Positions 38,016 to 64,000 of a stretch of DNA of 64,000 nucleotides are shown here, one piece after another. Within the stretch, counting starts at the first letter, position 1; the number at the start of each line of letters is the position of its first letter. The DNA comes from Nanobdellota archaeon (GTDB lineage: Archaea > Nanobdellota > Nanobdellia > Woesearchaeales > UBA11576). The translations under genes were made by a program, and so were the position numbers. The notes below the pieces were generated by a model. The model was given only the letters and a program-made list of their open reading frames with translations, was not told where the DNA came from and searched no databases. The stretch covers positions 1,786 to 65,785 of the forward strand of contig JBHPEY010000005.1 in assembly GCA_042576705.1 (NCBI GenBank), given 5' to 3'.

Positions 38016-41000
38016 ATGATGAGTAGTAAATCCACAATAAATCACATCGTCTTTCTTATAGCAGTCCTTGTGCTGATTTCCAGCTCTGTAGGGGCTATAA
38101 CGGAGGATTTCAGCGCTTTCGGCTCCCGAGAGACCATCGATGTCTGTGCCTGTGATTTTACGACACAGAAGGTTTCCCTGCACAATACAGGGGATGTAAC
38201 CAGCACATACATGGTCTATATGTCTGGCGAGGCTGCATCATGGACAAATATCGCGCCACAGACTTTCGCCCTTGAGGGTGGAGAGCTCAAGACGCTTGAG
38301 CAGTTCATAAAAGTGCCCTGCAGCGCGCGTGGAGCCTACGAACTCAATACCTCTATCCGGACGCTGTTCGACACAGAGAAGGTGATCAGGCAGGCAGTCA
38401 ATGTACAGAACTGCGAGAATGTCCAGATCATACCCAAGTCGTCAGATTCTCAGGAAGTATGTCCCTGCACACCTGTGCAGTACAGCTTTGAGGTCGTCAA
38501 CACAGGCAAACACGTGGAGATCTACCAGATAAGTGTTGAACCTTTCTCAGATGCAATATCACTCAGTACAGATATCCTTATCCTTGAACCTGGAGAGAAA
38601 CAACAGGTCACTGTCTTCATCAACCTTGAATGCGGAAGGTATGGAGAGCAGTTATTCACATTCAATGCATTCGCAGAAGGCACAAAGATGCTCGGCCAGG
38701 CAGAGTTCGGCATGGACATCAAGAAGTGCTATGATTATTCCCTTGTCATAGATGATGAGTATGAGGTATGCCAGGGCGTGCCTAATGTCATACCATTCAA
38801 GATAGTCAACAACGCAAGCATCGCAAACACATACTCCCTGTTCGTTGATGGGGATGCGACTGAGTGGGTCTATACAGAGAACTCAACTGTAGATGTGTTC
38901 GGCGGAGAGACAAAGGAAGCAGACATCATCCTGTTCCCACCTAATGAGCAGGAGAGCGAATACGAGATAACACTTACAACCCTGTCTGCACGAGGCCAGG
39001 AGCAGCGGTCAAAGAACATCAAGCTCGAGACAAACATGTGCCATGATTATCAGCTTGTGCAGTCAGAAGACGCGCTGAAGGCCACAGAGTGCAAACAGAA
39101 AGAACATGTCTTCAACCTGAAGAACATCGGCTCCAGGGACACCACATACTATGTTGATGTCGCAGGATTCGATTGGCTGACTACATCAAGCGATCCTATA
39201 TTCCTGCTTGCAGGAGAGGAAGCGCAGGTCGTGCTCAGCGGACAGACGCCATGCAACCTTTCAGGAGAGTTCAAGGAAGACCTCTATGTCACAATCAAAG
39301 AGACAAACCAGACATTCCTTGAAGAGAAGACACTCACGATATACACCAAAGAAGATTCTTACATGCCTGACATAAAGATAACAGACCTTGAGATCGACTA
39401 TGAGGGCGGCGAGACAGCAGTCGAGATACTGAACACAGGATTCGAGCCTGTGAGCTATGACCTCTTCCTGATCGCAAGCGACTGGATAACAATCGACACG
39501 TCAAGCGTCACACTCGCTGCAGAAGACAACGCTACTGTCCTGCTCCAGGCATATCCTGCTAACGACACTGTTGAGGATACATACATGGGAGAGCTCGTGC
39601 TCGCTGTGAGCGGAGAGAATATCGAATACTCCACAGAGTTCTTCGTGGACCTCAAAGAGCAGAGAGGGCTTCCTCTTTGGCTTTGGGCAGCAATAAGCGG
39701 TATCGGTCTCCTGTTGATAGTCGTCATAATCGTGCTTATAGTCGTGCTGACCGGCAGGAAGAAAAAGAAAAAGCTGATCTCAGATGAGCCGGTCGACAAG
39801 GACGCGAAAAAGGATTTCATGTCAATCGACAAGAGGGAATACAGGAAGAGTGCCAAGGAAGAGAAGAAGGTCAAGATATGGACCATCCTTGTCGCAATCG
39901 CCCTGCTCGCACTCATTGTCGGTGCTGGTTATTATGCATACTCAACAGGTGTGTTTGACAGGCTGCAGAATGATACTGCTAGCAATGAGACAGTGCCTGA
40001 TATCGAGACAGAGGATGTCACTGTGCCTGTAACAACAGTCCCGGAAACACCTGAACCAGAAGAGACTGCTACTGGAGTGCTCACTAATGAGGACATCCAG
40101 GAATCATTGATCACAATAGACAGAAGCGGCGTTCCAGGCGAAGGAAATACTCTTGAGCTGACCAACGAGACTTCAGTCAACCTGCAGATGTCGATAACAA
40201 ACCCGACAGACAGGAAAGCAAAGTTTGAGGTCGCAACAGATGATGACAGCTGGGTAGAGTTTGACCAGAGCGTCGTGTCTGTGATGCCTGATGCTACAAA
40301 GACAATCAGCGTCCGGATAACTCCAGACCTTGAACAGCTTGAACAGAATGATTACTCAATCAAGATAAAGACCACGCTTGAAGGAAAGAAGATCCAGTAT
40401 GAGGAAGAGCTTGACCTGGTACTTACCAAGAAAAAGCCGTTCTTCAGCAGATACTGGCCATGGATGATCGCTGGTCTTGTGGCTCTTGTTGCGCTGCTCC
40501 TGATAATATGGCTCAGCGGCAGGGAGAAGACAGAGAAAGTTCCCCCTATCAAGAAGAGCAAGGAAGAGAAGAAAGCTGCTAAGGCTGAGAAAAAGGCCGC
40601 ACGTAAGGATAAAAAGGAAGAGAAGAAGAGCGGAATCTGGTTGCCTATTGCAATCGGTGTCGTCGTGCTGCTCATCCTTGCTGCGTTTGGTTTCTGGGCT
40701 TACAACACATTCAAGGATGCTGGAGATGATGTCTCTGAAGAAGATGTTGCTGCAGAAGAATCTGTAGAGGCTGCTGTTGAGACAGCAGCAGAACCAGCCA
40801 AGCTGACTGAAGATGATGTTGAGGAGCCGCTTATCAAGATCGATCGGACAGGAATACCTGGAGAGGGTGATGTGTTCAAGCTTGAACAGGACTCATATGA
40901 GATTCCTATGTCAATATACAACCCTACAGACAGGAAAGCAAGATTTACAGTCAATACAACCAATGAGAGCTGGGTCTCATTCCAGCAGTACATCATATTG

Positions 41001-41399
41001 GTGGGTCCTAATTCAGTGAAGAACATAAACATGACTCTTGAGCCTGACATGGACGCGCTGAAGAAGAATGATTACAAGGTTTCAATCAACACAAAGCTTG
41101 AAGGGGCTAAAATAGATTATGAGGAGACTCTCGAGTTTGTGCTCAAGAAGAAAAGACCTTTTGAGCTGGGATGGCTTTGGTATATACTTGGCGCGCTCGT
41201 TGTTGTCGGGCTTGTAATCCTGATTATTGAGGTTGTGAAAAGGCGAGAGAAGAAACCTAAGAGCATGGCTGCAGCAGCTGGTAAGAAGAAGGCTGTAAAG
41301 AAAAAGCCTGTTGAGAAAGGTAAGAGTGTCGCTGCAATCAACAAGGATCTTGCCAAGCTCCGTAAGAAGACTGTGTTGAAGGTCAAGGGTTCTAAATAA
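38016..41399 (+). CDS. Modular surface protein: signal peptide, ~540-aa CARDB/NEW3-like beta-domains, then two repeated [Lys-rich loop-TM-ectodomain-TM] modules and a Lys-rich tail
   Basis: From ATG 38016: MMSSKSTINHIVFLIAVLVLISSSVGA. Repeated units of the type 'C.DY.L....C.G......V.N.G.....Y.L' occur in the N-terminal part. Five TM helices, with loops such as GRKKKKKLISDEP...EEKKVKIW and EKVPPIKKSKEEKKAAKAEKKAARKDKKEEKKSGIW. The track start TTG 37983 was trimmed. Confidence 0.7.
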   Translation: MMSSKSTINHIVFLIAVLVLISSSVGAITEDFSAFGSRETIDVCACDFTTQKVSLHNTGDVTSTYMVYMSGEAASWTNIAPQTFALEGGELKTLEQFIKVPCSARGAYELNTSIRTLFDTEKVIRQAVNVQNCENVQIIPKSSDSQEVCPCTPVQYSFEVVNTGKHVEIYQISVEPFSDAISLSTDILILEPGEKQQVTVFINLECGRYGEQLFTFNAFAEGTKMLGQAEFGMDIKKCYDYSLVIDDEYEVCQGVPNVIPFKIVNNASIANTYSLFVDGDATEWVYTENSTVDVFGGETKEADIILFPPNEQESEYEITLTTLSARGQEQRSKNIKLETNMCHDYQLVQSEDALKATECKQKEHVFNLKNIGSRDTTYYVDVAGFDWLTTSSDPIFLLAGEEAQVVLSGQTPCNLSGEFKEDLYVTIKETNQTFLEEKTLTIYTKEDSYMPDIKITDLEIDYEGGETAVEILNTGFEPVSYDLFLIASDWITIDTSSVTLAAEDNATVLLQAYPANDTVEDTYMGELVLAVSGENIEYSTEFFVDLKEQRGLPLWLWAAISGIGLLLIVVIIVLIVVLTGRKKKKKLISDEPVDKDAKKDFMSIDKREYRKSAKEEKKVKIWTILVAIALLALIVGAGYYAYSTGVFDRLQNDTASNETVPDIETEDVTVPVTTVPETPEPEETATGVLTNEDIQESLITIDRSGVPGEGNTLELTNETSVNLQMSITNPTDRKAKFEVATDDDSWVEFDQSVVSVMPDATKTISVRITPDLEQLEQNDYSIKIKTTLEGKKIQYEEELDLVLTKKKPFFSRYWPWMIAGLVALVALLLIIWLSGREKTEKVPPIKKSKEEKKAAKAEKKAARKDKKEEKKSGIWLPIAIGVVVLLILAAFGFWAYNTFKDAGDDVSEEDVAAEESVEAAVETAAEPAKLTEDDVEEPLIKIDRTGIPGEGDVFKLEQDSYEIPMSIYNPTDRKARFTVNTTNESWVSFQQYIILVGPNSVKNINMTLEPDMDALKKNDYKVSINTKLEGAKIDYEETLEFVLKKKRPFELGWLWYILGALVVVGLVILIIEVVKRREKKPKSMAAAAGKKKAVKKKPVEKGKSVAAINKDLAKLRKKTVLKVKGSK
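39752..41237 (+). repeat. Two tandem ~240-aa coding modules (period about 723-760 nt)
   Basis: ESLITIDRSGVPGEGNTLEL...ITNPTDRKAKFEVATDD.SWVEF...NDYSIKIKTTLEGKKIQYEEELDLVLTKKKPF aligns with EPLIKIDRTGIPGEGDVFKL...IYNPTDRKARFTVNTTNESWVSF...NDYKVSINTKLEGAKIDYEETLEFVLKKKRPF. Each is preceded by a Lys-rich loop plus TM and followed by a TM. Confidence 0.7.
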
Positions 41400-49638: not shown

Positions 49639-52600
49639 ATGGAGAACAGAAGTAACCAAGAACTAAAATTACTTGTAGATGTCTTTTCAGGCAGGACTAG
49701 TTCTAACAGGTTCGGATGGATGTCAGCATTATGCGCAAAGAAACAGCCTAATGCGATAACCAAGGAAGAGGCACTGGAGCTTTATCTTTCTAACAATGAG
49801 GTAGGGGATGTCGCGCAGACAACACAAGAAGCGCTTCTTACCTATGTGTCAGGCGAGACTGCCGCAATAGGCCAGGAATTAATCGATCTGAAGGCAATAC
49901 TCACAACCAACAAGAGATGGAAGATCAAACACAAGCAAGTGGAGAAGATATTGTCCCAGATACAGCCAGAGTCATTGAGCGCTCTTGAGAGAGCCTATCT
50001 GACAGACCTGAACAGGTATGTTTCAGAGAACAGGGCATTGAAGGCTGGAAGAAACATAAAGATAAGGAACGGCATTGAACAATCAATCTCACAGCTTATG
50101 CCGGAGCGACCTCATACTTCTGAAACAGACACCGATTATGATATCCTTTTTGCAGATGCACTCAGGCAGGCGTCGTCCAGCACAAGCAACAGGTTCGAGA
50201 TACTTACCGAAGCATATACAGCATTGAATGGAGAATCTGCACTTGGCAGAAAACTTCTCAGGTTTGGAAAACATCTTACATCATCTTCGGGTTGGGAAGA
50301 ACGGTTGCAGAATGCCGGGACTATCCTGCAGCAGAACATCTCTCTTGATCTTTCTGAAGATGATGAGAACTATCTCCGGAATGCGCTTACCTATATCGAG
50401 AATGCAGGGGTGAATCATGTCGCGCCTGCAGTGACAGGGCTTGCGACTGACCTGACTGAAAAGATACATGACCTGCTTCTGGGAGATCTTTTCACAGAAG
50501 AGGAGATGGTGGAAACTGATGATGAAGAGATAATCCTCCTGGATGATAAAGATATCATCTATGCGCCTGAATCTGCGGCGTTGCCTGAGGAGACTGTGCC
50601 CATAAAGATGGCACGTGTCGACGGGCTCAGAGACCCTGTTGCAGAGATGCTTGGTGCAGGGAGCAAACCATCTGACCCACATGTTATTGAGGATACTCCC
50701 GTGGCCGGAATCACATTCTTTGGAGAGCCTGTAGGATACACCCCTGGACAGGCCAATGTAGGGTCCTTGTTTGCCGATGATCCTGTTGATGGCGGGTCAC
50801 TTTTTCCTTTAAAGAATATTGCGTGCAGGGAGTATGGAAACAGGATTGTGAAAGAAGATCCTGTGGATTATACTGCGGATGATTCGCTCTCGGACTCTTC
50901 TGTCGAGCTGGTGTCTCCCGAAGATCCCAAACATCCTGATTTACACAAGTACCTGAACAGAAGGGTGGTAGCTGGTCTAGGTGCAGGTGCAGCGCTTCTT
51001 ACTGTGGTCGGTACACTGGTAGCTCTTGCGAGCACAAGCAAAAGCAATGTAGACGAATCCCTTACCATGGTGTCGACAAATCCTCCTGTGGTCTATGTTG
51101 ACGCCCCTAAAAAAGAGCCAGCTCCAAAACACGCGCTAAAGGCTGTCCAAGAGCAAAGTGACTGGGACTACTGCTTTGACAATCTTTTTGATGATTCTAC
51201 TGCGCTCAGAAAAGGCTCAAGTATACACACGTTGAGCAAAAAAGACCTGGCAGAGGTAACCCAAAGATGCTTCCTGGATCAGGCAAGAAGAATAGATCCT
51301 GACCTTCTCAAGAACGTCAAGATAAGCTCATCTAAGTATATGCAGTTCCCTGCGTCTGCAGACCATGTCCTGGTCCGCACAGTGATGATCCCTGTCGAGA
51401 CAGAGGGGGGGAGGGAAGAGGTCCCATTGTCCTATTTGGATCCTATGATCGACTCCAGCGTAATGAGTCCGTTCGGGGCGCGAAGAAGGATATCATCGCC
51501 AACACGGAACAGCGATGGAATCTACTCCTGCCCTGAAGGGCAATTCAGGATGGCAAGAAAACCTCGGGCTGTGCCTGAAGATGATCCTGTAGGGTCAAAG
51601 ATGACTTATGTTGACGCAACGCACATACAACCTTTAGGAAGCATAGATGGTCTGGTATCTGAGAAGGTTCCAGAATCAGTACCAATCACTACCTCAGATA
51701 CGCCTGATATATCGGATTCAGTGGCAGACAAACCCAATACAAAATCAAGTGATAAAGCAAAACCTACTGTGGCAAATACACCCTCAGATGATTATTCAGA
51801 CATTGCCTCTTCAACAGCGAAGGCAAGGCCAAGAAAAAGAGCAACCAAAGCAAGAGGCCCGAACTTCGCATGCTATAAGAAACACATGGGACTGGACCTC
51901 AAACCGACGGCCGCTGGCTGGAAGACACTCAGAAGATACAGGACACCAATGTATCCTGTCCTACCTGGACGTGTCAAAAAGCTGGTAAAAGGGGGAATTC
52001 GTGCAGGGGACTATGTTGTAGTAGAGCATGAGAATGGGATAACCAGTGAATACATGCACATGGACAGGTTCACACCAAGGCTTGACTGCTTTTTCCCAGA
52101 GCAAAGAAGACACGCAAAAAACAGGGAGGCGGCCAAGGACTGCAAGGCAGATGAAAGCATTGTTAAATCACGGACAGGCAGCCGGATAGAGTTCAAGGAT
52201 GGACAAGGACCTGTGGTCCTGCCACATGTGTTCGAGGAACTGACTTTCGAGACTGATCCTGAAAGCGATGAAGTCAGGAATCCACTGCGCGAATACCTGG
52301 GAGGTGAATTCTTTGTCGGTTTCATGGGCCATACAGGAAACGCAGACGTTGCGTATCCGCACCTCCATCTTTATGTCAAGCATGATGGCAAATACGTCGA
52401 TCCTGAGAGATTACTGCCGGTGAACAAGCACGGCATTGACGTCATATTTAATGAATCCCACGAGGCTTACCTTGCTGATGTATCGAAGAGAGTGGGAGTA
52501 CTTCCTTATGTTGTCCGCAATATGCGTGGAATAGAGACCGGACATAAAGGTGCAAACATGCGCGCTAAATCCCGTAAGGGTGCTGTAGGGTTCATGCAGG

Positions 52601-53274
52601 TCATGCACTGCGCAGTGAGCATGGCACGGGCCCAATGCCGGAAGGAACTGAATTATTTTGTCCACCAGAAAAAATCCCTGGAAGGCGTGGTGGATGAAAC
52701 TAGCAGGGATAAATCAGAGAAGATCCAGGACAACATAGATATGTTCTCATACTACTGCGACATGCTGTCCAGCGACATGAGTTGGCATTTTGTAAAGACA
52801 GACCCTCTTGTGAACATGTTCGCAGGCGTCATGGTATTCAAAAGGAATCTCGACAGGTTCGGAGGGGACTATCTCAAGGCCATCGCAGGTTACAACGCAG
52901 GACCCGGAGCTGTCGAGAAGGCGATGGCGAGAGCCAGCAGGATAGACCAGTCCCTTGACAAGAGGATACACAAATCAGAGATAAGCGGCAATGTGCAGGG
53001 GCTCATACAATTGCGCCAGCAGAAGAAAAAGAACAGCTGGATAAATTTCATATACAGCGGCACACGCCACTATGTGCATAGGGCAATGAAGAATATCGAA
53101 GAGGATGATGCGCTGTATGGTCCTGTAGAATCCCCTAATGAACAAAAACCTGCAAAGTATATCCCTCCCAAGCCTGCGGCTCCAAGCAGGACCGGACCGG
53201 CCCCCAGCAAGTCGGCAATGCGTGGAGGAAACCATCACCCTGCCAGACGGGATTATCACAGAAGAAGGACCTGA
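49639..53274 (+). CDS. 1211-aa bitopic protein with extracytoplasmic M23 (LytM) metallopeptidase and SLT lytic transglycosylase domains
   Basis: A single TM (VVAGLGAGAALLTVVGTLVALAS, about nt 50965-51035). M23 motifs HMGLD (HxxxD, 51883-) and PHLHLYV (HxH, 52359-), with GHTGNADV..HLH..DGKYVDP. SLT motifs GIETGH (catalytic Glu, ~52534), GAVGFMQVM and AGYNAGPGAV (~52888). The N-terminal ~450 aa are cytoplasmic and uncharacterised. Confidence 0.8.
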   Translation: MENRSNQELKLLVDVFSGRTSSNRFGWMSALCAKKQPNAITKEEALELYLSNNEVGDVAQTTQEALLTYVSGETAAIGQELIDLKAILTTNKRWKIKHKQVEKILSQIQPESLSALERAYLTDLNRYVSENRALKAGRNIKIRNGIEQSISQLMPERPHTSETDTDYDILFADALRQASSSTSNRFEILTEAYTALNGESALGRKLLRFGKHLTSSSGWEERLQNAGTILQQNISLDLSEDDENYLRNALTYIENAGVNHVAPAVTGLATDLTEKIHDLLLGDLFTEEEMVETDDEEIILLDDKDIIYAPESAALPEETVPIKMARVDGLRDPVAEMLGAGSKPSDPHVIEDTPVAGITFFGEPVGYTPGQANVGSLFADDPVDGGSLFPLKNIACREYGNRIVKEDPVDYTADDSLSDSSVELVSPEDPKHPDLHKYLNRRVVAGLGAGAALLTVVGTLVALASTSKSNVDESLTMVSTNPPVVYVDAPKKEPAPKHALKAVQEQSDWDYCFDNLFDDSTALRKGSSIHTLSKKDLAEVTQRCFLDQARRIDPDLLKNVKISSSKYMQFPASADHVLVRTVMIPVETEGGREEVPLSYLDPMIDSSVMSPFGARRRISSPTRNSDGIYSCPEGQFRMARKPRAVPEDDPVGSKMTYVDATHIQPLGSIDGLVSEKVPESVPITTSDTPDISDSVADKPNTKSSDKAKPTVANTPSDDYSDIASSTAKARPRKRATKARGPNFACYKKHMGLDLKPTAAGWKTLRRYRTPMYPVLPGRVKKLVKGGIRAGDYVVVEHENGITSEYMHMDRFTPRLDCFFPEQRRHAKNREAAKDCKADESIVKSRTGSRIEFKDGQGPVVLPHVFEELTFETDPESDEVRNPLREYLGGEFFVGFMGHTGNADVAYPHLHLYVKHDGKYVDPERLLPVNKHGIDVIFNESHEAYLADVSKRVGVLPYVVRNMRGIETGHKGANMRAKSRKGAVGFMQVMHCAVSMARAQCRKELNYFVHQKKSLEGVVDETSRDKSEKIQDNIDMFSYYCDMLSSDMSWHFVKTDPLVNMFAGVMVFKRNLDRFGGDYLKAIAGYNAGPGAVEKAMARASRIDQSLDKRIHKSEISGNVQGLIQLRQQKKKNSWINFIYSGTRHYVHRAMKNIEEDDALYGPVESPNEQKPAKYIPPKPAAPSRTGPAPSKSAMRGGNHHPARRDYHRRRT

Positions 53275-55747: not shown

Positions 55748-57049
55748 ATGGTACAGCAGAACCTTGTTGCGTATATCATGTCGCAGCTGCGGCAGGGCAA
55801 GAAGCTTGAGGATGTAAACAGATTCCTTCTTGAAGCAGGGTATGACAAGTCAGCGGTAGAGGGTTCTGTACAGTATGTCATCAACCTGCAGACAAACCCC
55901 GAGATTGCAGAGGAGCAGAGGATACAGCAGCTTTCAGATTACATAAACAAACAGATGCAGGCAGGGTATGGACAGCAGGCAATCGCGAATTTCCTGATAT
56001 CACGAGGTTATCCATATTATGAGGTCAATGTTGCATTGCAGCAGGCAACCCTACCAAAGAAAGAGGTCAAGGTCGAGCATAAGCTGGCTGTCTTTGCAGT
56101 GATTGTCATATTGGTAATGGCGTTGGCAGTGACTGCTATGTATTTCAAGCTCTATACCCTGTTCGGGCAAGCGTTTCCAGAACAGCTGCTGGATGTTGAG
56201 ACAGAAAAGCTCACTACCATAGTGCAACAGGGGGGAGAGCTGTCTTTTCAAGTGAAACTATTGAGCTTCGGATACAACAAACGCTTTGATGTTGAGCTGG
56301 AGTACAAGATAGTTGACAGGGACACTCAAGCAGTGGTGCTTGAGAAAGGGGAGACACTGGCGCTTTCAACTACACTGGAGAATATAGTCACTTTTGATAT
56401 TCCTGATACGATGAAGACCGGGAAGTATGTGCTGAGGGTTGATGCAACATACCAGGAATTTACAGCAACATCAGGATTCATATTTGATGTGTTGTCTGCG
56501 GATATTGCAGAAGAGACACTCAAGGAGATACGCGAGCAGATACCTGTCGAGGAGGAATTGACAGATATACCTGAGCTCGAAGAGAATGTCACAGAACCTG
56601 TCGAGCCTGTAGGGCCACAGGTCGTGCCTGAGCCTATACCCCCTGCACCAAGACCGGGGGTGCCGAAGTTCTTTGAAGGCATGACCAAGAAGCAGGCGTT
56701 CGAGATGGTAAAGGCAGCATCTGTCAGGGAGCCTAACAAGGCTGTGGCCATGTGCAACGAGTTCGAGCTGCCCGGTAATCTCCAGGGCTGTTTCATGACG
56801 CTAGCAAGCTTCAAGAAGGATGCGAATTTCTGCAGGGATATCGAGGAAGAAAGGGCCAGAGATTCCTGTTACATGCAGGCAATATTAGAGACAAAGCAAT
56901 TTGACCTGTGCGACAAGATAACAAACCAGCATGTCAAGCAATCCTGCGAGGTAGTGTCCGCCACAGAAGAAGCGCAGAAGGCAGCCGACGCAGGTAATAT
57001 GGAGGATGCGCAGTTCATATTACAGACAATCCCCTTAACTGGTGGCTGA
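55748..57049 (+). CDS. Single-pass membrane protein: two copies of a small cytoplasmic N-terminal motif, TM, beta-rich and Cys-repeat ectodomain
   Basis: LVAYIMSQLRQGKKLEDVNRFLLEAGYDKSAVEGSVQYV and LSDYINKQMQAGYGQQAIANFLISRGYPYYEVNVALQQ (duplicated motif). TM: LAVFAVIVILVMALAVTAMYF. The C-terminus has MCNEFELPGNLQGC, FCRDIEEERARDSC and LCDKITNQHVKQSC. Confidence 0.6.
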   Translation: MVQQNLVAYIMSQLRQGKKLEDVNRFLLEAGYDKSAVEGSVQYVINLQTNPEIAEEQRIQQLSDYINKQMQAGYGQQAIANFLISRGYPYYEVNVALQQATLPKKEVKVEHKLAVFAVIVILVMALAVTAMYFKLYTLFGQAFPEQLLDVETEKLTTIVQQGGELSFQVKLLSFGYNKRFDVELEYKIVDRDTQAVVLEKGETLALSTTLENIVTFDIPDTMKTGKYVLRVDATYQEFTATSGFIFDVLSADIAEETLKEIREQIPVEEELTDIPELEENVTEPVEPVGPQVVPEPIPPAPRPGVPKFFEGMTKKQAFEMVKAASVREPNKAVAMCNEFELPGNLQGCFMTLASFKKDANFCRDIEEERARDSCYMQAILETKQFDLCDKITNQHVKQSCEVVSATEEAQKAADAGNMEDAQFILQTIPLTGG

Positions 57050-59485
57050 ATCGATGAATCTCGGATTCAGTTGGGCCCTGTGGGATTCATAGAATACCTG
57101 CATCTCTTCTGTCTCGTTCATATCATTGAAACATCTTGGCATGGGCGTACTCAAAACATAGAACTCAACTGTGTCACCGCCCGCAAGATCCTCTTTTGAC
57201 ACGACCCAGGGGAAGCTTTCATTTATCTCTATTCCCCCAAGATTGACAGGTTTCATGGTTATGTTCTCCTCTGGAATGAATACATCCACGTCGCAACTCC
57301 CGCAGGTATGACATGACCAGATTCCTGCAGTCAAGACCCCTGTCAGAGCCGAGTATTCAGAGCATCTATCCTCATAGTCATAGGGGTACCATCTACACAT
57401 CTTTTCACAGTTGTCTGTCGTGCATTCCTCACATATGTGTGAACAGTTCTCTGGAAAAACCGTGCCATCTGTATCCAGATACTGCGCCTTGATAGTATAT
57501 ATCCCAGGCACCAGATCTACTGTCAGGAAATACGGGTCTGTCAAGGACGCGTTGCCATAGATGACCAATGTTTTTGTAAATGGCTGCACATAAGAGGGGT
57601 CGTCAATCTTCCTTATGTTCATTATGATCTGATCTGACCCGTTGAATTCTAAAAGCGTGCTGTTCCACACCAGCCATTTGTCTATTTCAGACCTCTCTAT
57701 CTCTTCATTCTCCAGGATTACTGTCCTGTTGAGGCGGAATTTCTTCAGTGATATGCTCTTTGTCACCAATGGTTCCAGCATCACGTCAAATTCAAGCTCT
57801 GTATCGACCTCTGTCGTCAGCTTTGCTATCACTTTTTCCCTGAATCCGTCTTTGGACAGCTTGAGGTATCCCCCGCCGACACAAATCGGCAGTTGAGTCA
57901 CCAGCTCACTTGTGTCTGAATCAAGGTCGTATGTGGTCTCTCCTATCGAGCAGGCCCTGTGAGACCCGCAGCCAAACCTGACCTGCACACCATCCAGGGG
58001 ATTTTCTGCTGTGCTGTTGAATGACCTTATGGTTACGTTACCGCTCACCCTCTGTTTCGGCCTGCAGAAAAGGCTTTTTGTTATGTTTCCGCTTACGTGG
58101 GGTATATTGGCTGCTTCCTCATTCATCATCGCCTCGGCTTTTGTATTTAGGAGCATCTTGGACCTGTCAAAAGGCCCCATGGTGCCATTGCCTGCCATCC
58201 ATTTCTTTATTGCCCTGTTGTCCCTGATGTTCGCCTCCAATGCAAAGTAGAATGAGTATGGTCTTCCAAAAAGCACATCCTCTTTCCTGAGCTCAACAAT
58301 GATAGGCACAGACACATCATAGAAGTATTCGTATATATTCTCCTCTGTGGGATTGCCGAACGAAAGACCCATCATGCTTATCTCTCTCACTTTCACTTCA
58401 GTAGGCCCTGTCGACTCACCGTCAGGGTTCATGTGCAGGTAGATGGGCTGGCCGAAGTAGAGGAAGGTCACGGTGTAATTATCATAGCCTGTCTCCAGGA
58501 CATCCTTATAGAACAGGGAATAATAGGCCTGTTTTGCCGGATCTTCTTCTATCGTGTATTGTTGTCTGCCGTTCTTGGTGTTCTTCAGCTGTATAAGCGG
58601 GGTGTAGACTCCAATAATGTCCATGATATTCTGCTTTACAATGGATCTGATCCAGACCTTCTTGGATGCTCCGAATTCCCGCGCAAAGAAAGGGGGGAGT
58701 CTGTTTGAGTCTGATGAGGAGTAGCTGCTCAGAAGATATATGATGATCTCTTCCAGGAAATTCTCTTCCACTTCAGCAGCGGTTATCGCTCTTGCGAGCT
58801 CGTAGAACTCTATAAACTTGAGAGGGATCTTTACGTAGAACCTGTCCAGTTCTGTTGTCCTGCTGTCCATAGTTATATTGACAGGGTAATTAGCGAATAT
58901 CGAGATGTCCTCTTTCGCAATCTTGACATCAACCTTGGGCTCTGCCTTCTCTTCAACTTCAAATCCCTGCTTTTCAAATCCCCTGAAATCATCAAGGCAT
59001 CTTTCCAACTCCCTGCTGATATACCTTTCCATCTGCAGCTCTATATTCTCAAGAGAGGGAGAGTTCTGGTCGCTCAACAGGCAGTTCCAGCAGTTGTTCT
59101 TCGTCGCCATATGCCACCAATAAGCCACATGCGTCGACTCATCCATCAGGAAGGTGACACCATCTGCCTCTGTAGGGTCAAACAGGTCTATGTTGAACTC
59201 CCTTCCGGAGATATCCTCGTCAAGCATGTCTATGTACCCGCCGTGCTGCCCTGCCTTGTATATCCCTTCTTCAGCAACCTGGGTTATACACGACCTTATG
59301 AACGTGTCTATAGGCTTGACTTCTGCAGGAGCCTCTTCAATCGCTTCACCTATCTCCTGCGATAGGACATCCTCCTTGTCAAAATAGATGAAGTACAATG
59401 TAACCAGTGCTGTTCCAAGTATGACTATACCTAATATTATGAAAATCGTGAGCTGTGCTTTTTTCCCAGTATGTATTGCATTCAT
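57035..59485 (-). CDS. 816-aa extracytoplasmic protein with N-terminal anchor / possible class III (prepilin-like) signal peptide
   Basis: The true start is probably ATG 59485 (MNAIHTGKKAQLTIFIILGIVILGTALV...), overlapping the upstream stop as ATGA (59482-59485). The 135 codons upstream in the track ORF overlap the 263-aa gene and look non-coding. The C-terminal region is Cys-rich (CSHICEECTTDNCEKMC, CHTCGSCD). Confidence 0.7.
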   Translation of the reverse strand: MNAIHTGKKAQLTIFIILGIVILGTALVTLYFIYFDKEDVLSQEIGEAIEEAPAEVKPIDTFIRSCITQVAEEGIYKAGQHGGYIDMLDEDISGREFNIDLFDPTEADGVTFLMDESTHVAYWWHMATKNNCWNCLLSDQNSPSLENIELQMERYISRELERCLDDFRGFEKQGFEVEEKAEPKVDVKIAKEDISIFANYPVNITMDSRTTELDRFYVKIPLKFIEFYELARAITAAEVEENFLEEIIIYLLSSYSSSDSNRLPPFFAREFGASKKVWIRSIVKQNIMDIIGVYTPLIQLKNTKNGRQQYTIEEDPAKQAYYSLFYKDVLETGYDNYTVTFLYFGQPIYLHMNPDGESTGPTEVKVREISMMGLSFGNPTEENIYEYFYDVSVPIIVELRKEDVLFGRPYSFYFALEANIRDNRAIKKWMAGNGTMGPFDRSKMLLNTKAEAMMNEEAANIPHVSGNITKSLFCRPKQRVSGNVTIRSFNSTAENPLDGVQVRFGCGSHRACSIGETTYDLDSDTSELVTQLPICVGGGYLKLSKDGFREKVIAKLTTEVDTELEFDVMLEPLVTKSISLKKFRLNRTVILENEEIERSEIDKWLVWNSTLLEFNGSDQIIMNIRKIDDPSYVQPFTKTLVIYGNASLTDPYFLTVDLVPGIYTIKAQYLDTDGTVFPENCSHICEECTTDNCEKMCRWYPYDYEDRCSEYSALTGVLTAGIWSCHTCGSCDVDVFIPEENITMKPVNLGGIEINESFPWVVSKEDLAGGDTVEFYVLSTPMPRCFNDMNETEEMQVFYESHRAQLNPRFIDSATS

Positions 59486-60273
59486 TTTGTTCTCAATGAT
59501 ATGTAAAAATATATCCTGGATGCGTGGATGCCTGCCAAAAAGACCAAGAGCGACGGGATGAACATGATGACTGCGCTGACAGCGATGCCGAGCAACACGA
59601 TGTTGCAGAGCAGTACCAGCCAGACAAGAACCAGCAGGTAGTTGAGGAGGCTTCTCAGCGAAAAGACTTCCCTGACTGAACGCATGTTGACCCATAATGT
59701 CTTGTCTGGGTCGAAAAAGACATACGCGACCATCAGGACAAAGTGGATTAGGGCAAGCTCTATCACGAGCAGATACGCGTTGATCGGCGTCTTGGTCAAT
59801 ACTACAGTCAGTATCATCACGACGATGCAGGCACACAACAGACAGATTGTCAATGCTGCAAACTTCCAGACATATTGCCAGCTGAAACACTTCCTGCTTA
59901 TCCTGCTCCAGATGAAACCCTTGAACACTGACGCAATCGATGCTGTGAGAAGGAAAATGAATATTGCGTAGGAAGATATGCTTATTTTCATGTCCTCCAA
60001 TTGCCTGCTGATGCCCTCAACCTCTGCCCGCACGTTTGCGGACAGCTCATTGCCCAGGACCTGCTGCTTGATTTCCAGCAGACGAGGGGCGATGTCGACA
60101 AAGCCCTCAAGCATCTTTCCCACAACAGCAATGCTGATGAGGATGATCATAGCCAGGATAAAGAGCAATGCAATATCTGTAAGGATGCAATAGAGGGAAT
60201 CTTTCTTCCAGAAGGCCGAAGATACCCTGCCCATACGCTCCTTTATCCTGCCCTTGCTTTTTTTTTTCTTCAT
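59482..60273 (-). CDS. Polytopic membrane protein (263 aa), unknown function
   Basis: Lys-rich N-terminus MKKKKSKGRIKER, about 6 TM helices, and a coiled segment between TM1 and TM2. ATGA overlaps at both ends (60270-60273 and 59482-59485). Confidence 0.65.
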   Translation of the reverse strand: MKKKKSKGRIKERMGRVSSAFWKKDSLYCILTDIALLFILAMIILISIAVVGKMLEGFVDIAPRLLEIKQQVLGNELSANVRAEVEGISRQLEDMKISISSYAIFIFLLTASIASVFKGFIWSRISRKCFSWQYVWKFAALTICLLCACIVVMILTVVLTKTPINAYLLVIELALIHFVLMVAYVFFDPDKTLWVNMRSVREVFSLRSLLNYLLVLVWLVLLCNIVLLGIAVSAVIMFIPSLLVFLAGIHASRIYFYISLRTK

Positions 60274-60803
60274 TCTACGAATATGGCCTCCAATACAAGG
60301 CTCTTTGCACTGACTGACATGACTGCTTTAGTCATGGTCTCGTTGGATTCAACAGCAGCATAGCCATCGTAGCCTGTGAAAGGTGTGGCAGAGGCTGACT
60401 CCACAAGCCAGGTTGTCCCATCATCATAGTAAGCTATGATCTCGTACTGCAGTGATTCAGCAACCGGCTGGAGATACCAGGAGATAGCGTATACTTTCGT
60501 GTCTGCCGGGAGGATGTCCTCGCCTTCTTCAAGGATTATCACCTCTGCCTGCAGTGTGGCGGTATAGTCCAGTGAGGTGATATCATGCATTGCTGTCGAG
60601 GAGGTCTCTCCACCCATAGACTGTTGTTCATCCCTGGTTCCACCCCAGCTGCTGCAGAAATCAATCTCCCAGTCTGACACATCATACCAGCCAAGGTCGA
60701 CGTCAATGACGCCCGGATCATTGCTGGCAATGACAAGCCCTGCAAGTACAAGGATGCCTGCCAGGCCACACCATGATATCTTTTTACCTATCATATTCAT
60801 CAC
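60270..60803 (-). CDS. Small secreted beta-rich protein (177 aa)
   Basis: Signal-like N-terminus MNMIGKKISWCGLAGILVLAGLVIAS. The start overlaps the upstream stop (GTGATG context at 60798-60803). Confidence 0.6.
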   Translation of the reverse strand: MMNMIGKKISWCGLAGILVLAGLVIASNDPGVIDVDLGWYDVSDWEIDFCSSWGGTRDEQQSMGGETSSTAMHDITSLDYTATLQAEVIILEEGEDILPADTKVYAISWYLQPVAESLQYEIIAYYDDGTTWLVESASATPFTGYDGYAAVESNETMTKAVMSVSAKSLVLEAIFVE

Positions 60804-63800
60804 TCAGTACTGCAAAAATCAGGATCCTCCAGATCCCTTGAATACCTGTTGAGATCCAAAGGGTCGAGCATCAAATCTGCCATCTTACCCATCTCAAGCC
60901 AGATACCTGCGCTAAGGATACCTCCGCAGGCGACACCCATTGGCTGAGCGCCTGGATAACAACGTGCGCTTATAGGATCTAACACAGGCAAAAAAAGGTA
61001 AGGACACCCTAGTATAACAAGTGATGCTAGTGAGCCGAATTCCACGGCGCTGCGAAAGAACAATTCACTCAGCGCCTGGATCCACAAGAAGTATTTTCCC
61101 CAGCCTATTGCCTTTATCGGCGCACTTTCTATGTATATGCACTCCCTTATCTTGTGCAGCTCATCGCAGACATCTGTTGAGAATCCTGCAGCCGCCCTGT
61201 CGAGAATGCACTTCCTGTAGAGGCATTTCAGCTGCCTAGACTTCTTGTAGTTGTAAAGGATGCCGGGTATGCATACAAAGGCCCATGCAACATCCACTGA
61301 CCTGTAGGGGTCGTAGTTGAATTCTGAAAATGCACTGGCAAAAGGAATGTGCACGGCAGCATTGCGCTCTGGCTCAATATTCTCATCATCAAAATTATAC
61401 CTGTATGAGTTGCCCCTGGCAGCGCCTGTATATGTTATGGATTCTATGAAGTTCGCGCTGTCTATCAATTCACAGGTGTAATACGCGCAAAACAGCCTTA
61501 TGTAGATCCCGGATGCGGCATAGGATGCGGGGATAGTGATCGCTAATATGAATGGATTGTAAGCCCACAGCATCGCTGAATTGGATGCCTGATCCAGACC
61601 CATGCAAATTGCCTGATATGCGCTTGGCCACCACCAGGCCAGCAAGCCTGCTGCAACAGCCTTGATGACCTGCATAGCTATGACCAGCATCTCGATAATC
61701 TGTCCCAATGTGCAGAACGTGCCGAATATCTTGTTGACTATATCCAGAGCATCAATGGTGCTTTCCAGTCCGTCAATCTCTTCATCTATGTCTTCTATCT
61801 TGTCAAATATTGCCTGATCGACGTAACCCAGCGGGAAGTTGTAGAGAGGGATGCCGAACGTGACTGTATCCTCTTCTGGAAGCTCATAGACCTTTGTGCC
61901 TGAGCGGATTATGAAACTGAAGTCGCAGGTCACCACAAGCTCATTCACTGTCAGCGCGTCTTCAATCCCTGCCAGCTGGATCTTTGTACCGATGAGCGCA
62001 GAGGTGAAAGGGACAAGGGAAACTATATCTGTCCCTATTATCGAAGCGTTCTCTGCTGTACAGCTGCCCATTTTCATATCCTGGATCTGCCCTGCAGAGG
62101 TCAAAAAAACCGCGGTGTAAAAGAACGGGTGAGGAAACCCTGAAGCGATCTTCCTGTCAAGCCCATTGCTCGGAAGCTGTGCTGATGTCATCACACTCAC
62201 CACATTTGGCGGTGTCCCTGGAGTGGATTCGCACACTTCCTGGGTGACGCTTGTGGTGTCCCTGTTGCCTGCCCTGTCTATCACTGTGATGTTTATGACA
62301 TCATCTGTGTATATCGTGACAAGATTGTCAATCTCAAAATCGCATAACCACACACCAGACACGTCAGACTCTTCGCAGTCGAACTCCATGGGAAAATTGT
62401 TCGTGCTCAGTCTCGAAGCAGACACCTCTACCTTAACCCCGCCGGAGAGGTGCTCTGACACGTTCATAGCTATCGATATCTCGTCAAGAGCAGTAGGGCA
62501 GATGCTTGAGTTCACGACTGAAATGATCTCTGGCGGTTCAGGATCATAGTAGAAACCCGCAGAGGTAACTCCCCTTATCATGTTCCTTGCGTTATCTGTC
62601 GATCCTGCAGTCACGAATAGCGAGAGGATATCCCCTACAGTCTTGGTCGGGTCAACAACTATGTTGTTGAAATTACACATCCAACCCTCTGTGCAGTTGT
62701 TCGGAAAGAGATTTGTATGGCCTTCAGCGTATGTCTGTTCCCCGAAGCTGCTGAAATCCAGGAACAGTTTCCTGTCGCTGAAACCAGATTCATTCTCTAT
62801 TATATCCACGTAGATTGAGTTGTTGCCTGCCCCTACCCAATATCTTGCGTTATCATCAGCAATACCTGAGCGTATAGAGACGATCTCTGGCTGGGTGTCG
62901 TCATATATCACCGGCAGGATCACCGAACTGTTCATCTTGTTCCCGTTGATGTCCTCTGCGATGATCCTTACTTCTGGAATGAAATCATCAGGAATGATTG
63001 CCAGAATACCTGTCCAGTTGCAGCCGTATAGTCCTGTTGATATGTTATGGCAGCCTCCCTGGAATATGGGATCCGACATCTGCACGTTCTTGTACGCGTC
63101 TGCAAATTCGGGCCTGTAGTTGAGACCTGAGAAGTCTGCTACAATGGTGCTTATGTTCAATCCTTCATCCTCAGAGATGTTCACCTGGATCCTGACATTA
63201 CTTATCGGGTCACCCTGGCTATACTTCAACAGTCGGTTCCCGACCCAGACGCTCGCGCCCAGCAGTGTCGGAAGAGAGAAATCCATTGTCACGTTCTTGC
63301 ACTCCTGCGTTCTCTGTCCAAGCCTGTCAAATATTTCCATGCAGACATTGCGCTCCTGTGTTGTTCCAGGGGCCTGCGGGACATCCAATGTTGTCCAGTT
63401 CTCAACCAGGAGACATTCTGTGCCTTCGGGCAACACTTCACCAACTGTAACATAATCAATAAGGAACGCAACCCGGGAGATTCCTGCACAAGTGTCTTGT
63501 GCGCAGGAACTGCACGCGGTATCTGACGCGCTGTATGTTACGGATATGTTTGATTCGTTCCGCGTCACATAGAATGAATGGATATTTGGAGTATCCCCAT
63601 CAACCATTATCGGAACCACCAGCTGGGGCCCTTCAGGAGAACCGTCCTGCCTGTAGAGCTGCAGGCCATATTGCCGAGGGCCTGGAGGAATATCGCCTGC
63701 TATATTTGTAGTGCAAAAAACAGTTTCGCTGATATTGCCTTGTGAACATTGAAACACCCTTGAAGGGTCACCTATCAATCTGATCTGCAGCGGGGTCACT

Positions 63801-63991
63801 TCTTCACCTGCAATGCTTGCTGAAACATTCAGAATAGTGACATCGTTAGTGCTTCTCCTGAAGCTCGGTATATTGTCCATGCCGTAGGCGTTCGCATTCA
63901 TATCTGCGAAAACCCCTGCAGAATGCAGGACAGGCATGATCAAGAGATAAATCAAGAACATACAGATGTAGTGTGAACCTCTTTTTAGCAT
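60800..63991 (-). CDS. 1063-aa protein: signal peptide, Ig-like repeat ectodomain, and a ~330-aa C-terminal polytopic Cys-containing membrane domain
   Basis: MLKRGSHYICMFLIYLLIMPVLHSAGVFA. Ig-like boundaries DGDTPNIHSF, DDTQPEIVSI, DPEPPEIISV, with VIDRAGNRD. The C-terminus has several hydrophobic helices (IIEMLVIAMQVIKAVAAGLLAWWW, NPFILAITIPASYAASGIYIRLF, VAWAFVCIPGILY, LASLVILGCPYLFLPVL, VACGGILSAGIWL). Confidence 0.7.
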   Translation of the reverse strand: MLKRGSHYICMFLIYLLIMPVLHSAGVFADMNANAYGMDNIPSFRRSTNDVTILNVSASIAGEEVTPLQIRLIGDPSRVFQCSQGNISETVFCTTNIAGDIPPGPRQYGLQLYRQDGSPEGPQLVVPIMVDGDTPNIHSFYVTRNESNISVTYSASDTACSSCAQDTCAGISRVAFLIDYVTVGEVLPEGTECLLVENWTTLDVPQAPGTTQERNVCMEIFDRLGQRTQECKNVTMDFSLPTLLGASVWVGNRLLKYSQGDPISNVRIQVNISEDEGLNISTIVADFSGLNYRPEFADAYKNVQMSDPIFQGGCHNISTGLYGCNWTGILAIIPDDFIPEVRIIAEDINGNKMNSSVILPVIYDDTQPEIVSIRSGIADDNARYWVGAGNNSIYVDIIENESGFSDRKLFLDFSSFGEQTYAEGHTNLFPNNCTEGWMCNFNNIVVDPTKTVGDILSLFVTAGSTDNARNMIRGVTSAGFYYDPEPPEIISVVNSSICPTALDEISIAMNVSEHLSGGVKVEVSASRLSTNNFPMEFDCEESDVSGVWLCDFEIDNLVTIYTDDVINITVIDRAGNRDTTSVTQEVCESTPGTPPNVVSVMTSAQLPSNGLDRKIASGFPHPFFYTAVFLTSAGQIQDMKMGSCTAENASIIGTDIVSLVPFTSALIGTKIQLAGIEDALTVNELVVTCDFSFIIRSGTKVYELPEEDTVTFGIPLYNFPLGYVDQAIFDKIEDIDEEIDGLESTIDALDIVNKIFGTFCTLGQIIEMLVIAMQVIKAVAAGLLAWWWPSAYQAICMGLDQASNSAMLWAYNPFILAITIPASYAASGIYIRLFCAYYTCELIDSANFIESITYTGAARGNSYRYNFDDENIEPERNAAVHIPFASAFSEFNYDPYRSVDVAWAFVCIPGILYNYKKSRQLKCLYRKCILDRAAAGFSTDVCDELHKIRECIYIESAPIKAIGWGKYFLWIQALSELFFRSAVEFGSLASLVILGCPYLFLPVLDPISARCYPGAQPMGVACGGILSAGIWLEMGKMADLMLDPLDLNRYSRDLEDPDFCSTE

Positions 63992-64000
63992 GGTCTCATG

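What the first reader, a model, noticed from the sequence alone, without database searches (positions are those of the whole stretch)
57035..64000. Four-gene translationally coupled envelope operon of unknown function (may continue beyond the right edge)
Seen in sequence: four minus-strand genes are chained by stop/start overlaps (60798-60803, 60270-60273, 59482-85, the last two being ATGA). First is a 1063-aa protein whose Ig-like ectodomain is fused to a ~330-aa polytopic, Cys-containing membrane domain, an odd pairing of adhesin and multi-pass anchor. The others are a 177-aa secreted protein, a 263-aa polytopic membrane protein with a Lys-rich N-terminus, and an 816-aa extracytoplasmic protein. 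A TGA sits 5 nt upstream of the first ATG (63996-63998), so another gene may precede it. No component has a motif I can assign. The strict coupling implies stoichiometric assembly of a membrane-embedded surface complex.
Basis: partly seen in the sequence, partly recalled or inferred. Interest (0 to 1): 0.62.

Follow-up and report, generated by a model that had tools for sequence, protein, structure and literature searches.

The report
Conserved DPANN archaeal surface-protein operon
The four coupled genes are real and are one copy of a five-family gene module, found across a whole phylum of tiny, probably symbiotic archaea, that matches no characterised family and most likely builds a membrane-anchored cell-surface structure whose function is untested.

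Summary
The four minus-strand genes and their start/stop overlaps are real. The operon does not continue to the right. An MCM helicase gene ends 57 nt upstream, and a conserved archaeal BRE/TATA box lies in between.

The host is a Woesearchaeota-type DPANN archaeon (1.7 Mb). None of the four proteins matches Pfam, NCBIfam, PHROGs or PDB sequences.

AlphaFold2 models:
- **g1:** a signal peptide, about seven Ig-like domains and a Cys-rich all-helical C-terminal domain. That domain is only marginally hydrophobic, so it is not a convincing polytopic anchor.
- **g4:** a class-III-like N-terminal anchor (K-K-A-Q plus a hydrophobic helix), a 380-aa α/β domain with no fold match, and β-sandwich domains.

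Conservation:
- g4 relatives occur in 274 of 301 genomes of the phylum. g1 relatives occur in 135 of 201 genomes of the order.
- The best g1 and g4 hits lie within 6 kb on one strand in 35 of 38 genomes.
- The order g1-g2-g3-g4 recurs in many families, usually with a fifth gene (g5; convergent here).
- Three separate g3::g4 gene fusions link the 6-TM protein to the anchor protein.

My best reading is a glycosylated envelope or cell-contact complex. An S-layer role and a type-IV-filament link are not excluded. Function is untested.

The parts
60800..63991 (-). g1, 1063 aa. Secreted rod protein of family F1.
   Evidence: ORF. AF2 model has pLDDT 81. Relatives in 135 of 201 genomes of the order. 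Named relatives are 'hypothetical protein, Candidatus Woesearchaeota archaeon'.
63905..63991 (-). g1 Sec-type signal peptide (residues 1-29).
   Evidence: Hydrophobic helix at residues 4-26. The h-region and an A-x-V-x-A end are conserved in the family alignment.
61841..63904 (-). g1 ectodomain of about seven beta-sandwich (Ig-like) domains (residues 30-717).
   Evidence: AF2 secondary structure. Foldseek hits to tandem-Ig proteins: GhpA, EA1, SbsB, cadherins. Recurrent 'D..P.I' domain borders and paired Cys. 18 N-x-S/T sequons in the whole protein, the 92nd percentile of the genome.
60803..61816 (-). g1 C-terminal all-helical, Cys-rich domain (residues 726-1063). It starts with a 62-residue helix that is acidic and then hydrophobic.
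   Evidence: AF2. Eleven conserved Cys. Only marginal hydrophobicity.
61139..61273 (-). Most conserved g1 motif, C-x-P-G-I-x-Y-N-x-x-K-x-R-Q-I-x-C-x-Y-x-x-C ... C ... C (residues 907-951).
   Evidence: Invariant or nearly invariant columns. This is the only part of g1 detected in other orders, where it sits inside 1785-2185-aa ORFs about 5 kb downstream of a g4 homologue.
60270..60803 (-). g2, 177 aa. Small exported protein of family F2. The start may be GTG 60803, ATG 60800 or ATG 60794.
   Evidence: Family alignment shows invariant W38, Y39, E45, C49 and Y109 (motif NWY.VEDWEIE.CS). It lies next to g1 in L002, L003, L005, L006, L008-L011, L013, L017-L022, L025 and L032.
59482..60273 (-). g3, 263 aa. 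Lys-rich N-terminus followed by 6 predicted TM helices, family F3.
   Evidence: Family alignment. Fused in frame to g4 in L016, P0085 and P0128.
57035..59485 (-). g4, 816 aa. N-terminally anchored ectoprotein of family F4.
   Evidence: ORF. 3409 cluster representatives at E<=1e-3. Relatives in 274 of 301 genomes of the phylum. AF2 model has pLDDT 85.
59384..59485 (-). g4 class-III-like signal/anchor, MNAIHTGKKA|QLTIFIILGIVILGTALVTLYFIY (residues 1-34).
   Evidence: Family consensus is M..KK.QIT.FII.GI.LL, with Q11 and T13 at least 90% conserved. Hessa dG is -3.5. Cleavage was not tested.
58181..59326 (-). g4 conserved membrane-proximal alpha/beta domain (residues 54-435). This is the core of family F4.
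   Evidence: pLDDT is mostly above 90. No fold match in PDB or BFVD. In most paralogues and in other orders only this part aligns.
57038..58048 (-). g4 distal, variable part (residues 480-816): beta-sandwich domains and a Cys-rich C-terminal alpha/beta domain.
   Evidence: AF2. Foldseek hits to CnaB, transthyretin-like and cohesin-like domains and to SlaB, all with low TM-scores.
55748..57049 (+). g5, 433 aa. Cytoplasmic helical repeats, one TM helix and an ectodomain with a Cys-rich end, family F5. Convergent here; its 3' end overlaps g4 by 15 nt.
   Evidence: A homologue lies directly beside g4 in L002, L003, L016-L019, L021, L022 and L025. It is co-directional, 1 nt after the g3::g4 fusion, in L032. 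No Pfam hit.
63992..64000 (-). Start of the 57-nt MCM-g1 intergenic region. The BRE/TATA-like box AAAATTTATATAC lies just beyond the window edge (about 64015-64027 in window numbering).
   Evidence: Sequence from the whole contig. The same box is upstream of the orthologue in L002, and a near-identical one in L032.

Best explanation
The locus is one promoter-driven operon (g1-g2-g3-g4) plus a convergent partner gene (g5). Together they are one copy of a gene module conserved across Woesearchaeales and, in core form, across the DPANN phylum Nanoarchaeota/Nanobdellota. I read it as the gene set for a membrane-anchored, N-glycosylated cell-surface complex.

Proposed working, with what is shown and what is inferred:
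1. **Membrane base (g3 + g4).** g3 is a 6-TM protein with both ends in the cytoplasm. It pairs in the membrane with the N-terminal hydrophobic helix of g4. The association is shown by recurrent g3::g4 fusions. The topology is inferred from those fusions.
2. **g4 ectodomain.** g4 holds a conserved alpha/beta domain close to the membrane and a variable beta-sandwich part further out. This comes from the AF2 model and from which parts align across the family. Its K-K-A|Q motif may be cut by one of the genome's two A24 prepilin-type peptidases (inferred, untested).
3. **g1 rod.** g1 is exported by Sec as a rod of about seven Ig-like domains. Its Cys-rich helical C-terminal domain docks on the base or sits at the membrane surface (inferred).
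4. **Accessory subunits.** g2 is a small exported accessory subunit. g5 is a single-pass partner with a cytoplasmic domain (inferred from linkage only).

Likely role: an envelope structure used for contact with partner cells. These are small-genome, probably symbiotic archaea; the module has multiple diverged paralogous copies per genome; and it combines conserved membrane-proximal parts with variable distal parts.
For: - **Operon anatomy.** Overlapping stops and starts. A conserved BRE/TATA-like box upstream of g1 in three loci. MCM upstream is separated by 57 nt.
- **Exported or membrane character.** Signal and anchor helices. Sequon density of g1 and g4 is in the 92nd-93rd percentile of 615 ORFs of this genome. 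Both are Cys-rich.
- **Structure.** Ig-like rod plus helical domain in g1. Anchor, unmatched alpha/beta domain and beta-sandwiches in g4.
- **Conservation.** The g4 family has 3409 representatives and occurs in 274 of 301 phylum genomes and 14 of 14 genomes of other orders. g1 occurs in 135 of 201 order genomes.
- **Linkage.** Gene order g1-g2-g3-g4(-g5) recurs in L002, L003, L016-L022, L025 and L032, in different genomic contexts. The best g1 and g4 hits are under 6 kb apart on one strand in 35 of 38 genomes where both coordinates were printed.
- **Fusions.** g3::g4 fusions in L016, P0085 and P0128 all keep the K/R-K-G-Q motif.
- **Processing enzymes exist.** Two A24 peptidases are present in the genome.
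Against: - There is no expression, localisation or interaction data.
- No structure of the complex could be predicted.
- Nothing ties the module specifically to host contact rather than to general envelope architecture.
- g1 has no clear membrane anchor, so how it is retained at the surface is unknown.
- No invariant acidic, His or Ser residues point to catalysis in g4, but an enzymatic role of its conserved domain is not excluded.
- Conserved synteny in compact genomes can persist without a physical complex.
Confidence: 0.6

Rival explanations
1. The module encodes the S-layer and its anchor. g1 and/or the distal part of g4 would form the lattice, and g3/g4/g5 would tether it to the membrane. 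This would be analogous to the SlaA/SlaB canopy-and-stalk arrangement.
For: - g1 is about 1000 aa with many Ig-like folds and many sequons. That matches the proposed DPANN S-layer candidates MJ1_0160 and NEQ300 as described in bioRxiv 10.1101/2023.10.27.564410.
- Foldseek lists S-layer proteins among the top hits: SlaB 8qox_B for g4; EA1 and SbsB for g1.
- g4 is nearly universal in the phylum, which fits a basic envelope role.
Against: - The fold hits are generic beta-sandwich matches (TM-score 0.1-0.2).
- The conserved parts are the membrane-proximal ones, and there are 1-6 diverged g4 copies per genome, which is unusual for a lattice protein.
- Archaeal S-layer genes are usually single, strongly expressed genes, and their sequences are rarely conserved across a phylum.
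- The same window holds another S-layer-like candidate (37983-41399, FixG_C-type Ig folds with TM hairpins).
- Expression level could not be checked.
Confidence: 0.2
2. g4 is a type-IV-filament substrate. It would be cut by a class III signal peptidase and assembled by the genome's distant ATPase/platform genes, as a minor pilin or tip adhesin, or held in a bindosome-like surface assembly. g1-g3 would be accessory factors.
For: - A short basic leader ends in K-K-A, followed by Q and a 20-residue hydrophobic helix. Q(+1) and T(+3) are at least 90% conserved in 61 sequences.
- Two A24 peptidases and two T2SSE ATPases are in the genome.
- DPANN T4F genes are known to be scattered rather than clustered (PMC13705601).
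Against: - There is no ATPase, platform or peptidase gene in or next to any of the roughly 20 loci examined.
- In the AF2 model the helix is followed by a low-confidence acidic linker and a 380-aa domain, not a pilin head packed on alpha-1.
- In-frame fusion behind a 6-TM protein is not known for pilins.
- No match to the class III signal-peptide Pfam family at E<=1.
Confidence: 0.12
3. The genes are merely neighbouring, independently acting surface and membrane proteins, with no complex and no joint function. They would be kept together by genome compaction.
For: No interaction data exist. Gene overlaps are common in small archaeal genomes.
Against: - The gene order is kept across about 30 families at 20-30% protein identity and in unrelated genomic contexts.
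- There are three g3::g4 fusions.
- The whole module, rather than single genes, is duplicated.
Confidence: 0.06

Closest known systems
Archaeal class III signal-peptide surface proteins (type IV pilins cut by PibD, FlaK or EppA; Sulfolobus bindosome sugar-binding proteins)
   Same: The g4 family starts with a short basic leader, then G/A/S, then Q and a hydrophobic helix. Q at +1 is also found in EppA substrates (own knowledge of Szabo et al. 2007). Like the bindosome proteins, g4 is a large ectoprotein rather than a small pilin.
   Different: The locus has no assembly ATPase or platform gene. The model shows no pilin head fold. The partner is a 6-TM protein that is sometimes fused in front of the signal. 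There is no substrate-binding-protein fold or Pfam hit.
SlaA/SlaB two-component S-layer of Sulfolobales (PDB 8qox), and the proposed DPANN S-layer proteins NEQ300 and MJ1_0160
   Same: Large, sequon-rich, multi-Ig-fold exoproteins paired with membrane-anchored partners. SlaB is the top Foldseek hit of g4 (E 4e-6).
   Different: The TM-score is only 0.11-0.19. SlaB is anchored by its C-terminus and g4 by its N-terminus. There are five families rather than two, and several paralogous sets per genome. No sequence relationship was detected.
Long tandem-Ig surface rods (GhpA grappling hook of Aureispira, PrgB, cadherins, Bacillus EA1/SbsB)
   Same: The g1 ectodomain is a chain of about seven beta-sandwich domains, and Foldseek aligns it to these (E 1e-11 to 1e-8).
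   Different: The resemblance is generic at domain level (TMq <= 0.17). None of these proteins has the Cys-rich helical C-terminal domain of g1 or its operon partners.

Membership tests
Type IV filament (T4F) system | Substrate with a class III signal peptide ([KR][GAS], then a hydrophobic helix) | tested here: met
   MNAIHTGKKA|QLTIFIILG. The motif is conserved in 61 family members and kept in the g3::g4 fusions. Cleavage itself was not tested.
Type IV filament (T4F) system | Pilin fold: a long alpha-1 helix packed against a small globular head | tested here: not met
   In the AF2 model the anchor helix is followed by a low-confidence acidic linker (pLDDT 60-68) and a separate 380-aa alpha/beta domain.
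Type IV filament (T4F) system | Assembly ATPase and polytopic platform protein | tested here: inconclusive
   The locus holds no T2SSE-type ATPase gene. The only two PF00437 matches in the genome are on contigs C6 and C8. None was seen in related loci. Because DPANN T4F genes are often scattered (PMC13705601), absence from the locus does not exclude use of the distant machinery.
Type IV filament (T4F) system | Class III signal peptidase (Peptidase_A24) in the genome | tested here: met
   Two matches above the cut-off: C26:3255-3572 and C5:25777-26106. Both are unlinked to the operon.
SlaA/SlaB-type S-layer | Sequence or fold homology to SlaA or SlaB | tested here: not met
   No PDB sequence hits. 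The Foldseek SlaB hit covers 211 columns at TM 0.11/0.19 and rmsd 17 A.
SlaA/SlaB-type S-layer | Among the most highly expressed genes of the cell | not testable with these tools
   The best 19-mers score +2.7 to +3.4 kcal/mol. 21 of 31 family members have no C-terminal segment below 1 kcal/mol.
Any curated protein family (Pfam, NCBIfam, PHROGs) | Match above the curated or significant threshold | tested here: not met
   No hit better than E=0.06 for g1-g4. There were no Pfam hits at E<=0.01 for g5. Hits were stray singletons only among 61 g4 relatives. There were none in nine longer g4 relatives.

The most novel reading that the evidence does not exclude
The module is an undescribed kind of archaeal envelope machine, specific to and nearly universal in Nanoarchaeota-type DPANN archaea. 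It would be the apparatus by which these episymbionts hold on to, and perhaps open a connection with, partner cells. The g3-g4 pair would be a membrane base of a new fold. The g1 rod, with its Cys-rich, amphipathic helical domain, would be the contact element.
Probability: 0.2. Interest if true: 0.9.

Novelty: new variant of a known kind. Interest (0 to 1): 0.65.

Why it matters
DPANN archaea make up a large share of archaeal diversity and are thought to live attached to other cells. The molecules that build their envelope and contact sites are essentially unknown, and Woesearchaeota have no cultivated member.

This is a five-family module that is nearly universal in the phylum, always clustered, present in several diverged copies per genome, and made only of exported or membrane proteins with unmatched domains. 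That makes it a concrete, testable candidate for this missing machinery.

The g3::g4 fusions give a specific pair to test for interaction. The conserved K-K-G/A-Q motif gives a specific processing site to test.

I found no description of the module in the held literature.

Tried and rejected
- **Family and sequence searches gave nothing usable.** This covers Pfam and NCBIfam on g1-g4, PHROGs on g1-g5, and PDB sequence or profile searches on g1-g4.
- **Pfam on relatives.** Sixty-one g4 relatives and nine longer g4 relatives were scanned to look for informative fused domains. None was found, so a cell-wall hydrolase fusion reported in earlier scan notes was not seen in this sample.
- **Foldseek.** g4 against PDB and BFVD, and g1 against PDB, gave only generic beta-sandwich matches.
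- **g3 as a divergent prepilin peptidase (6 TM, about 260 aa).** Rejected. An acidic residue at the start of TM1 is conserved, but there is no second conserved Asp or GxGD motif.
- **g5 related to the g1 Cys-rich domain.** No similarity.
- **Mobile-element or viral origin.** Rejected. There are no PHROG hits, the flanks are housekeeping genes (MCM, RPA-like OB-fold protein, SpoIIM-family protein, aIF2-beta), and the module is nearly universal in the phylum.
- **Word-based searches failed.** The word-based homologue search for g1 found few relatives. The search for related loci in genome contigs found none. Whole-genome searches were needed.
- **Model coordinates.** They were not available, so disulfide geometry and domain-wise fold searches could not be done.


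Full report
**What is in the sequence**

The window is bases 1786-65785 of a 67.4-kb contig (C5). The assembly is 1.70 Mb in 77 contigs, 89% complete, 48% G+C. The window carries orc1/cdc6, both PolD subunits and aIF2-beta, and MCM lies just past its right edge on the same contig. The organism is therefore an archaeon. Named relatives of the proteins studied here come from 'Candidatus Woesearchaeota archaeon', 'DPANN group archaeon' and 'Nanoarchaeota archaeon'.

- g1, 60800-63991, 1063 aa
- g2, 60270-60803, 177 aa
- g3, 59482-60273, 263 aa
- g4, 57035-59485, 816 aa

The g4 frame is open for 951 codons, but 60 homologues start at the same M..KKxQ position. The junctions are:
- g1/g2: GAGTGATGAATATG. 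That gives GTGA or TGATG overlap, or a 5-nt gap if the third start is used.
- g2/g3: ATGA.
- g3/g4: ATGA.

**The right edge**

The contig continues 1.6 kb past the window. The next gene on the same strand is MCM. It ends 57 nt before the g1 ATG. The spacer holds AAAATTTATATAC about 25-35 nt before the ATG. The same box precedes the orthologue in L002, whose g1 protein is 49% identical. A near-identical box (AAACTTTATATAC) precedes the L032 module, which sits behind unrelated genes. I read this as the BRE/TATA promoter of the operon; this is inference from the known archaeal promoter consensus.

At the other end, g4 converges on a 433-aa gene (g5, 55748-57049, + strand). Their 3' ends overlap by 15 nt.

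**The proteins**

None of g1-g4 has a usable hit in Pfam, NCBIfam, PHROGs or PDB sequences, alone or as family profiles. g5 has no hit in Pfam or PHROGs.

g1 (AF2 with a 31-sequence alignment, pLDDT 81):
- It has a signal helix and about seven beta-sandwich domains (residues 30-717).
- Residues 726-1042 form an all-helical domain. It begins with a 62-residue helix whose first half is acidic and second half hydrophobic.
- Foldseek finds only tandem-Ig proteins.
- The helical domain has 14 Cys, of which 11 are conserved. The family's strongest motif is C-x-P-G-I-x-Y-N-x-x-K-x-R-Q-I-x-C-x-Y-x-x-C.
- It is not a convincing polytopic domain. Its best 19-mers score +2.7 to +3.4 kcal/mol on the Hessa scale, against -5 to 0 for the g3 helices and -3.5 for the g4 anchor. 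21 of 31 family members have no segment below 1 kcal/mol there.

g2 has a signal-like helix and a conserved NWY.VEDWEIE.CS motif.

g3 has a Lys-rich N-terminus and six hydrophobic helices. The last two form a 43-residue hairpin stretch. It has almost no invariant polar residues.

g4 (AF2 with 61 sequences, pLDDT 85):
- The N-terminal helix is followed by a low-confidence acidic linker.
- A 380-aa alpha/beta domain (residues 54-435) is mostly above pLDDT 90.
- A disordered stretch (438-470) follows, then beta-sandwich domains and a Cys-rich C-terminal part.
- Foldseek against PDB and BFVD matches only the beta-sandwiches, at TM-scores of 0.1-0.2.

The g4 N-terminus, MNAIHTGKKA|QLTIFIILG, fits the archaeal class III signal-peptide pattern. 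Q(+1) and T(+3) are at least 90% conserved in the family. g1 and g4 carry 1.7 N-x-S/T sequons per 100 aa, the 92nd-93rd percentile of 615 long ORFs of this genome.

**Conservation and linkage**

- The g4 family is large: 3409 cluster representatives at E<=1e-3 among 1.8 billion.
- Whole-genome searches find g4 in 274 of 301 genomes of the phylum, 1-6 copies each, and in 14 of 14 genomes of other orders of the class.
- g1 is found in 135 of 201 genomes of the order.
- In other orders only g1's Cys motif is detectable. In 3 of 14 genomes it lies inside 1785-2185-aa ORFs about 5 kb downstream of g4 on the same strand.
- Both searches printed coordinates for 38 genomes. In 35 of them, from about 30 families, the best g1 and g4 hits lie under 6 kb apart on one strand. 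In the other three the hits sit on different contigs, in two of the three at a contig end.
- The order g1-g2-g3-g4 is seen in L002, L003, L017-L019, L021, L022 and L025. L020 has the same order but lacks g3. Tight junctions, often overlapping, are seen in most of these loci.
- A g5 homologue lies beside g4 in most of these loci.
- A second arrangement is g4'-g1'-g2'-g3'-g4''. It occurs in L023, L026, L029-L031 and L021. It also occurs in this genome at C1:100343-111427, where the products are 333, 736, 1149, 485, 290 and 711 aa.
- The window's cluster is therefore the single-module form of a module that is often duplicated.

**Fusions**

In L016 (60% G+C), and in the representatives P0085 and P0128, g3 and g4 are one reading frame of 1007-1117 aa. 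The junction keeps the motif (..GRKGQLSVFIILG....NKKGQVTIFIIVG....DKKGQISIFVIFG..). On its contig, P0085 sits exactly where g3 and g4 would be. It follows a 1095-aa g1 and a 194-aa g2, and is followed 1 nt later by a co-directional g5 homologue. RIO1 and KH-domain genes lie upstream, which is a different genomic context. The fusions require the g3 C-terminus to be cytoplasmic. They are the strongest evidence that g3 and g4 act together.

**Interpretation**

- Shown: a promoter-proximal, tightly packed operon of exported or membrane glycoprotein-like products. Five linked families are conserved as a block over a very wide range of DPANN genomes, and g3 and g4 are repeatedly fused.
- Inferred: the products form one membrane-anchored surface complex. 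g3 and the g4 anchor would be the base. The conserved g4 domain would sit near the membrane, with variable parts distal. g1 would be a rod that docks through its Cys-rich helical domain.
- A role in cell-cell contact fits the presumed symbiotic lifestyle, the multiple diverged paralogous sets, and the conserved-base, variable-tip pattern. It is not demonstrated.

**Rivals**

- An S-layer reading is the main rival. It rests on the size, Ig folds and sequons, which are the features of proposed DPANN S-layer proteins in bioRxiv 10.1101/2023.10.27.564410, and on S-layer proteins among the generic fold hits.
- A type-IV-filament link is possible for g4. The genome has two A24 peptidases and two T2SSE ATPases elsewhere, and DPANN T4F genes are often scattered (PMC13705601). 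However, the model lacks a pilin head, no locus contains assembly genes, and a pilin fused behind a 6-TM protein has no precedent that I know of.

**Comparison with known systems and novelty**

The module fails the membership tests for T4F loci, SlaA/SlaB S-layers and every curated family tested. It shares with them only general features: a class III-like signal, Ig-rich glycoproteins and a membrane partner. I found no description of it in the papers searched.

Earlier unchecked notes of this scan report the same kind of operon, mostly in its two-module form, in at least seven other Woesearchaeota genomes. That agrees with what I found independently, but it is not independent experimental support.

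I file it as a new variant of a known general kind, namely archaeal surface assemblies built from exported glycoproteins and class-III-signal proteins. I give a 20% chance that it is a truly new kind of contact machine.

**Limits**

No multimer prediction was possible and no model coordinates were available. The TM calls come from simple hydrophobicity scales.

Noticed in passing
G000 contig C1:100343-111427 (outside the window): A second, two-module copy of the system in the same genome, all on one strand. In order, its products are:
- a 333-aa Lys-rich TM protein with a Cys-rich end
- g4' (736 aa)
- g1' (1149 aa)
- a g2-like protein (485 aa)
- a g3-like protein (290 aa)
- g4'' (711 aa)
   Followed up: partly
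L016:9608-12631 (-); P0085; P0128; L032:8001-11183: In-frame g3::g4 fusions (1007-1117 aa) that keep the K/R-K-G-Q motif at the junction. If a class III peptidase cuts there, the 'leader' would be a 250-aa, 6-TM protein, which would be unprecedented.
   Followed up: partly
Genomes of other orders of the class, e.g. G261:C1:34032-34613, G328:C1:226310-226873: Several short ORFs (about 235-310 aa) per genome match only the first ~240 positions of the g4 profile (anchor plus first subdomain). They look like a mini-paralogue family.
   Followed up: no
G360:C1:166649-166816, G208:C1:15148-15324, G203:C36:10752-10928: The g1 Cys motif occurs inside giant ORFs (1785-2185 aa) about 5 kb downstream of a g4 homologue. 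Outside Woesearchaeales the g1 role may be taken by much larger proteins.
   Followed up: no
window 49639-53274 (+): A 1211-aa membrane protein with Peptidase_M23 and SLT lytic transglycosylase domains, i.e. bacterial cell-wall hydrolase domains in an archaeon (Pfam). It lies 2.5 kb from g5, and a homologue occupies the same position in L002.
   Followed up: partly
window 37983-41399 (+): A 1138-aa protein with FixG_C-type Ig folds alternating with TM hairpins. It is an alternative S-layer-like candidate in the same window.
   Followed up: no
window 27756-28817 (-) and 55748-57049 (+): By eye, the 353-aa protein and g5 share an N-terminal cytoplasmic helical repeat (..Y[IV]...[LI]..G....[IV]...L...G[YH]..) followed by one TM helix and a Cys-rich ectodomain. 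BLAST did not link them.
   Followed up: no
window 961-23813 (-): A run of very large, Cys-rich secreted proteins (2399, 577, 1307, 534, 460, 535 and 1153 aa), interrupted only by a plus-strand multi-TM gene (8355-9827). Several carry repeated D-x-D-G-D-G-Y/F-G and C-D-D motifs, and they have few or no Pfam hits.
   Followed up: no
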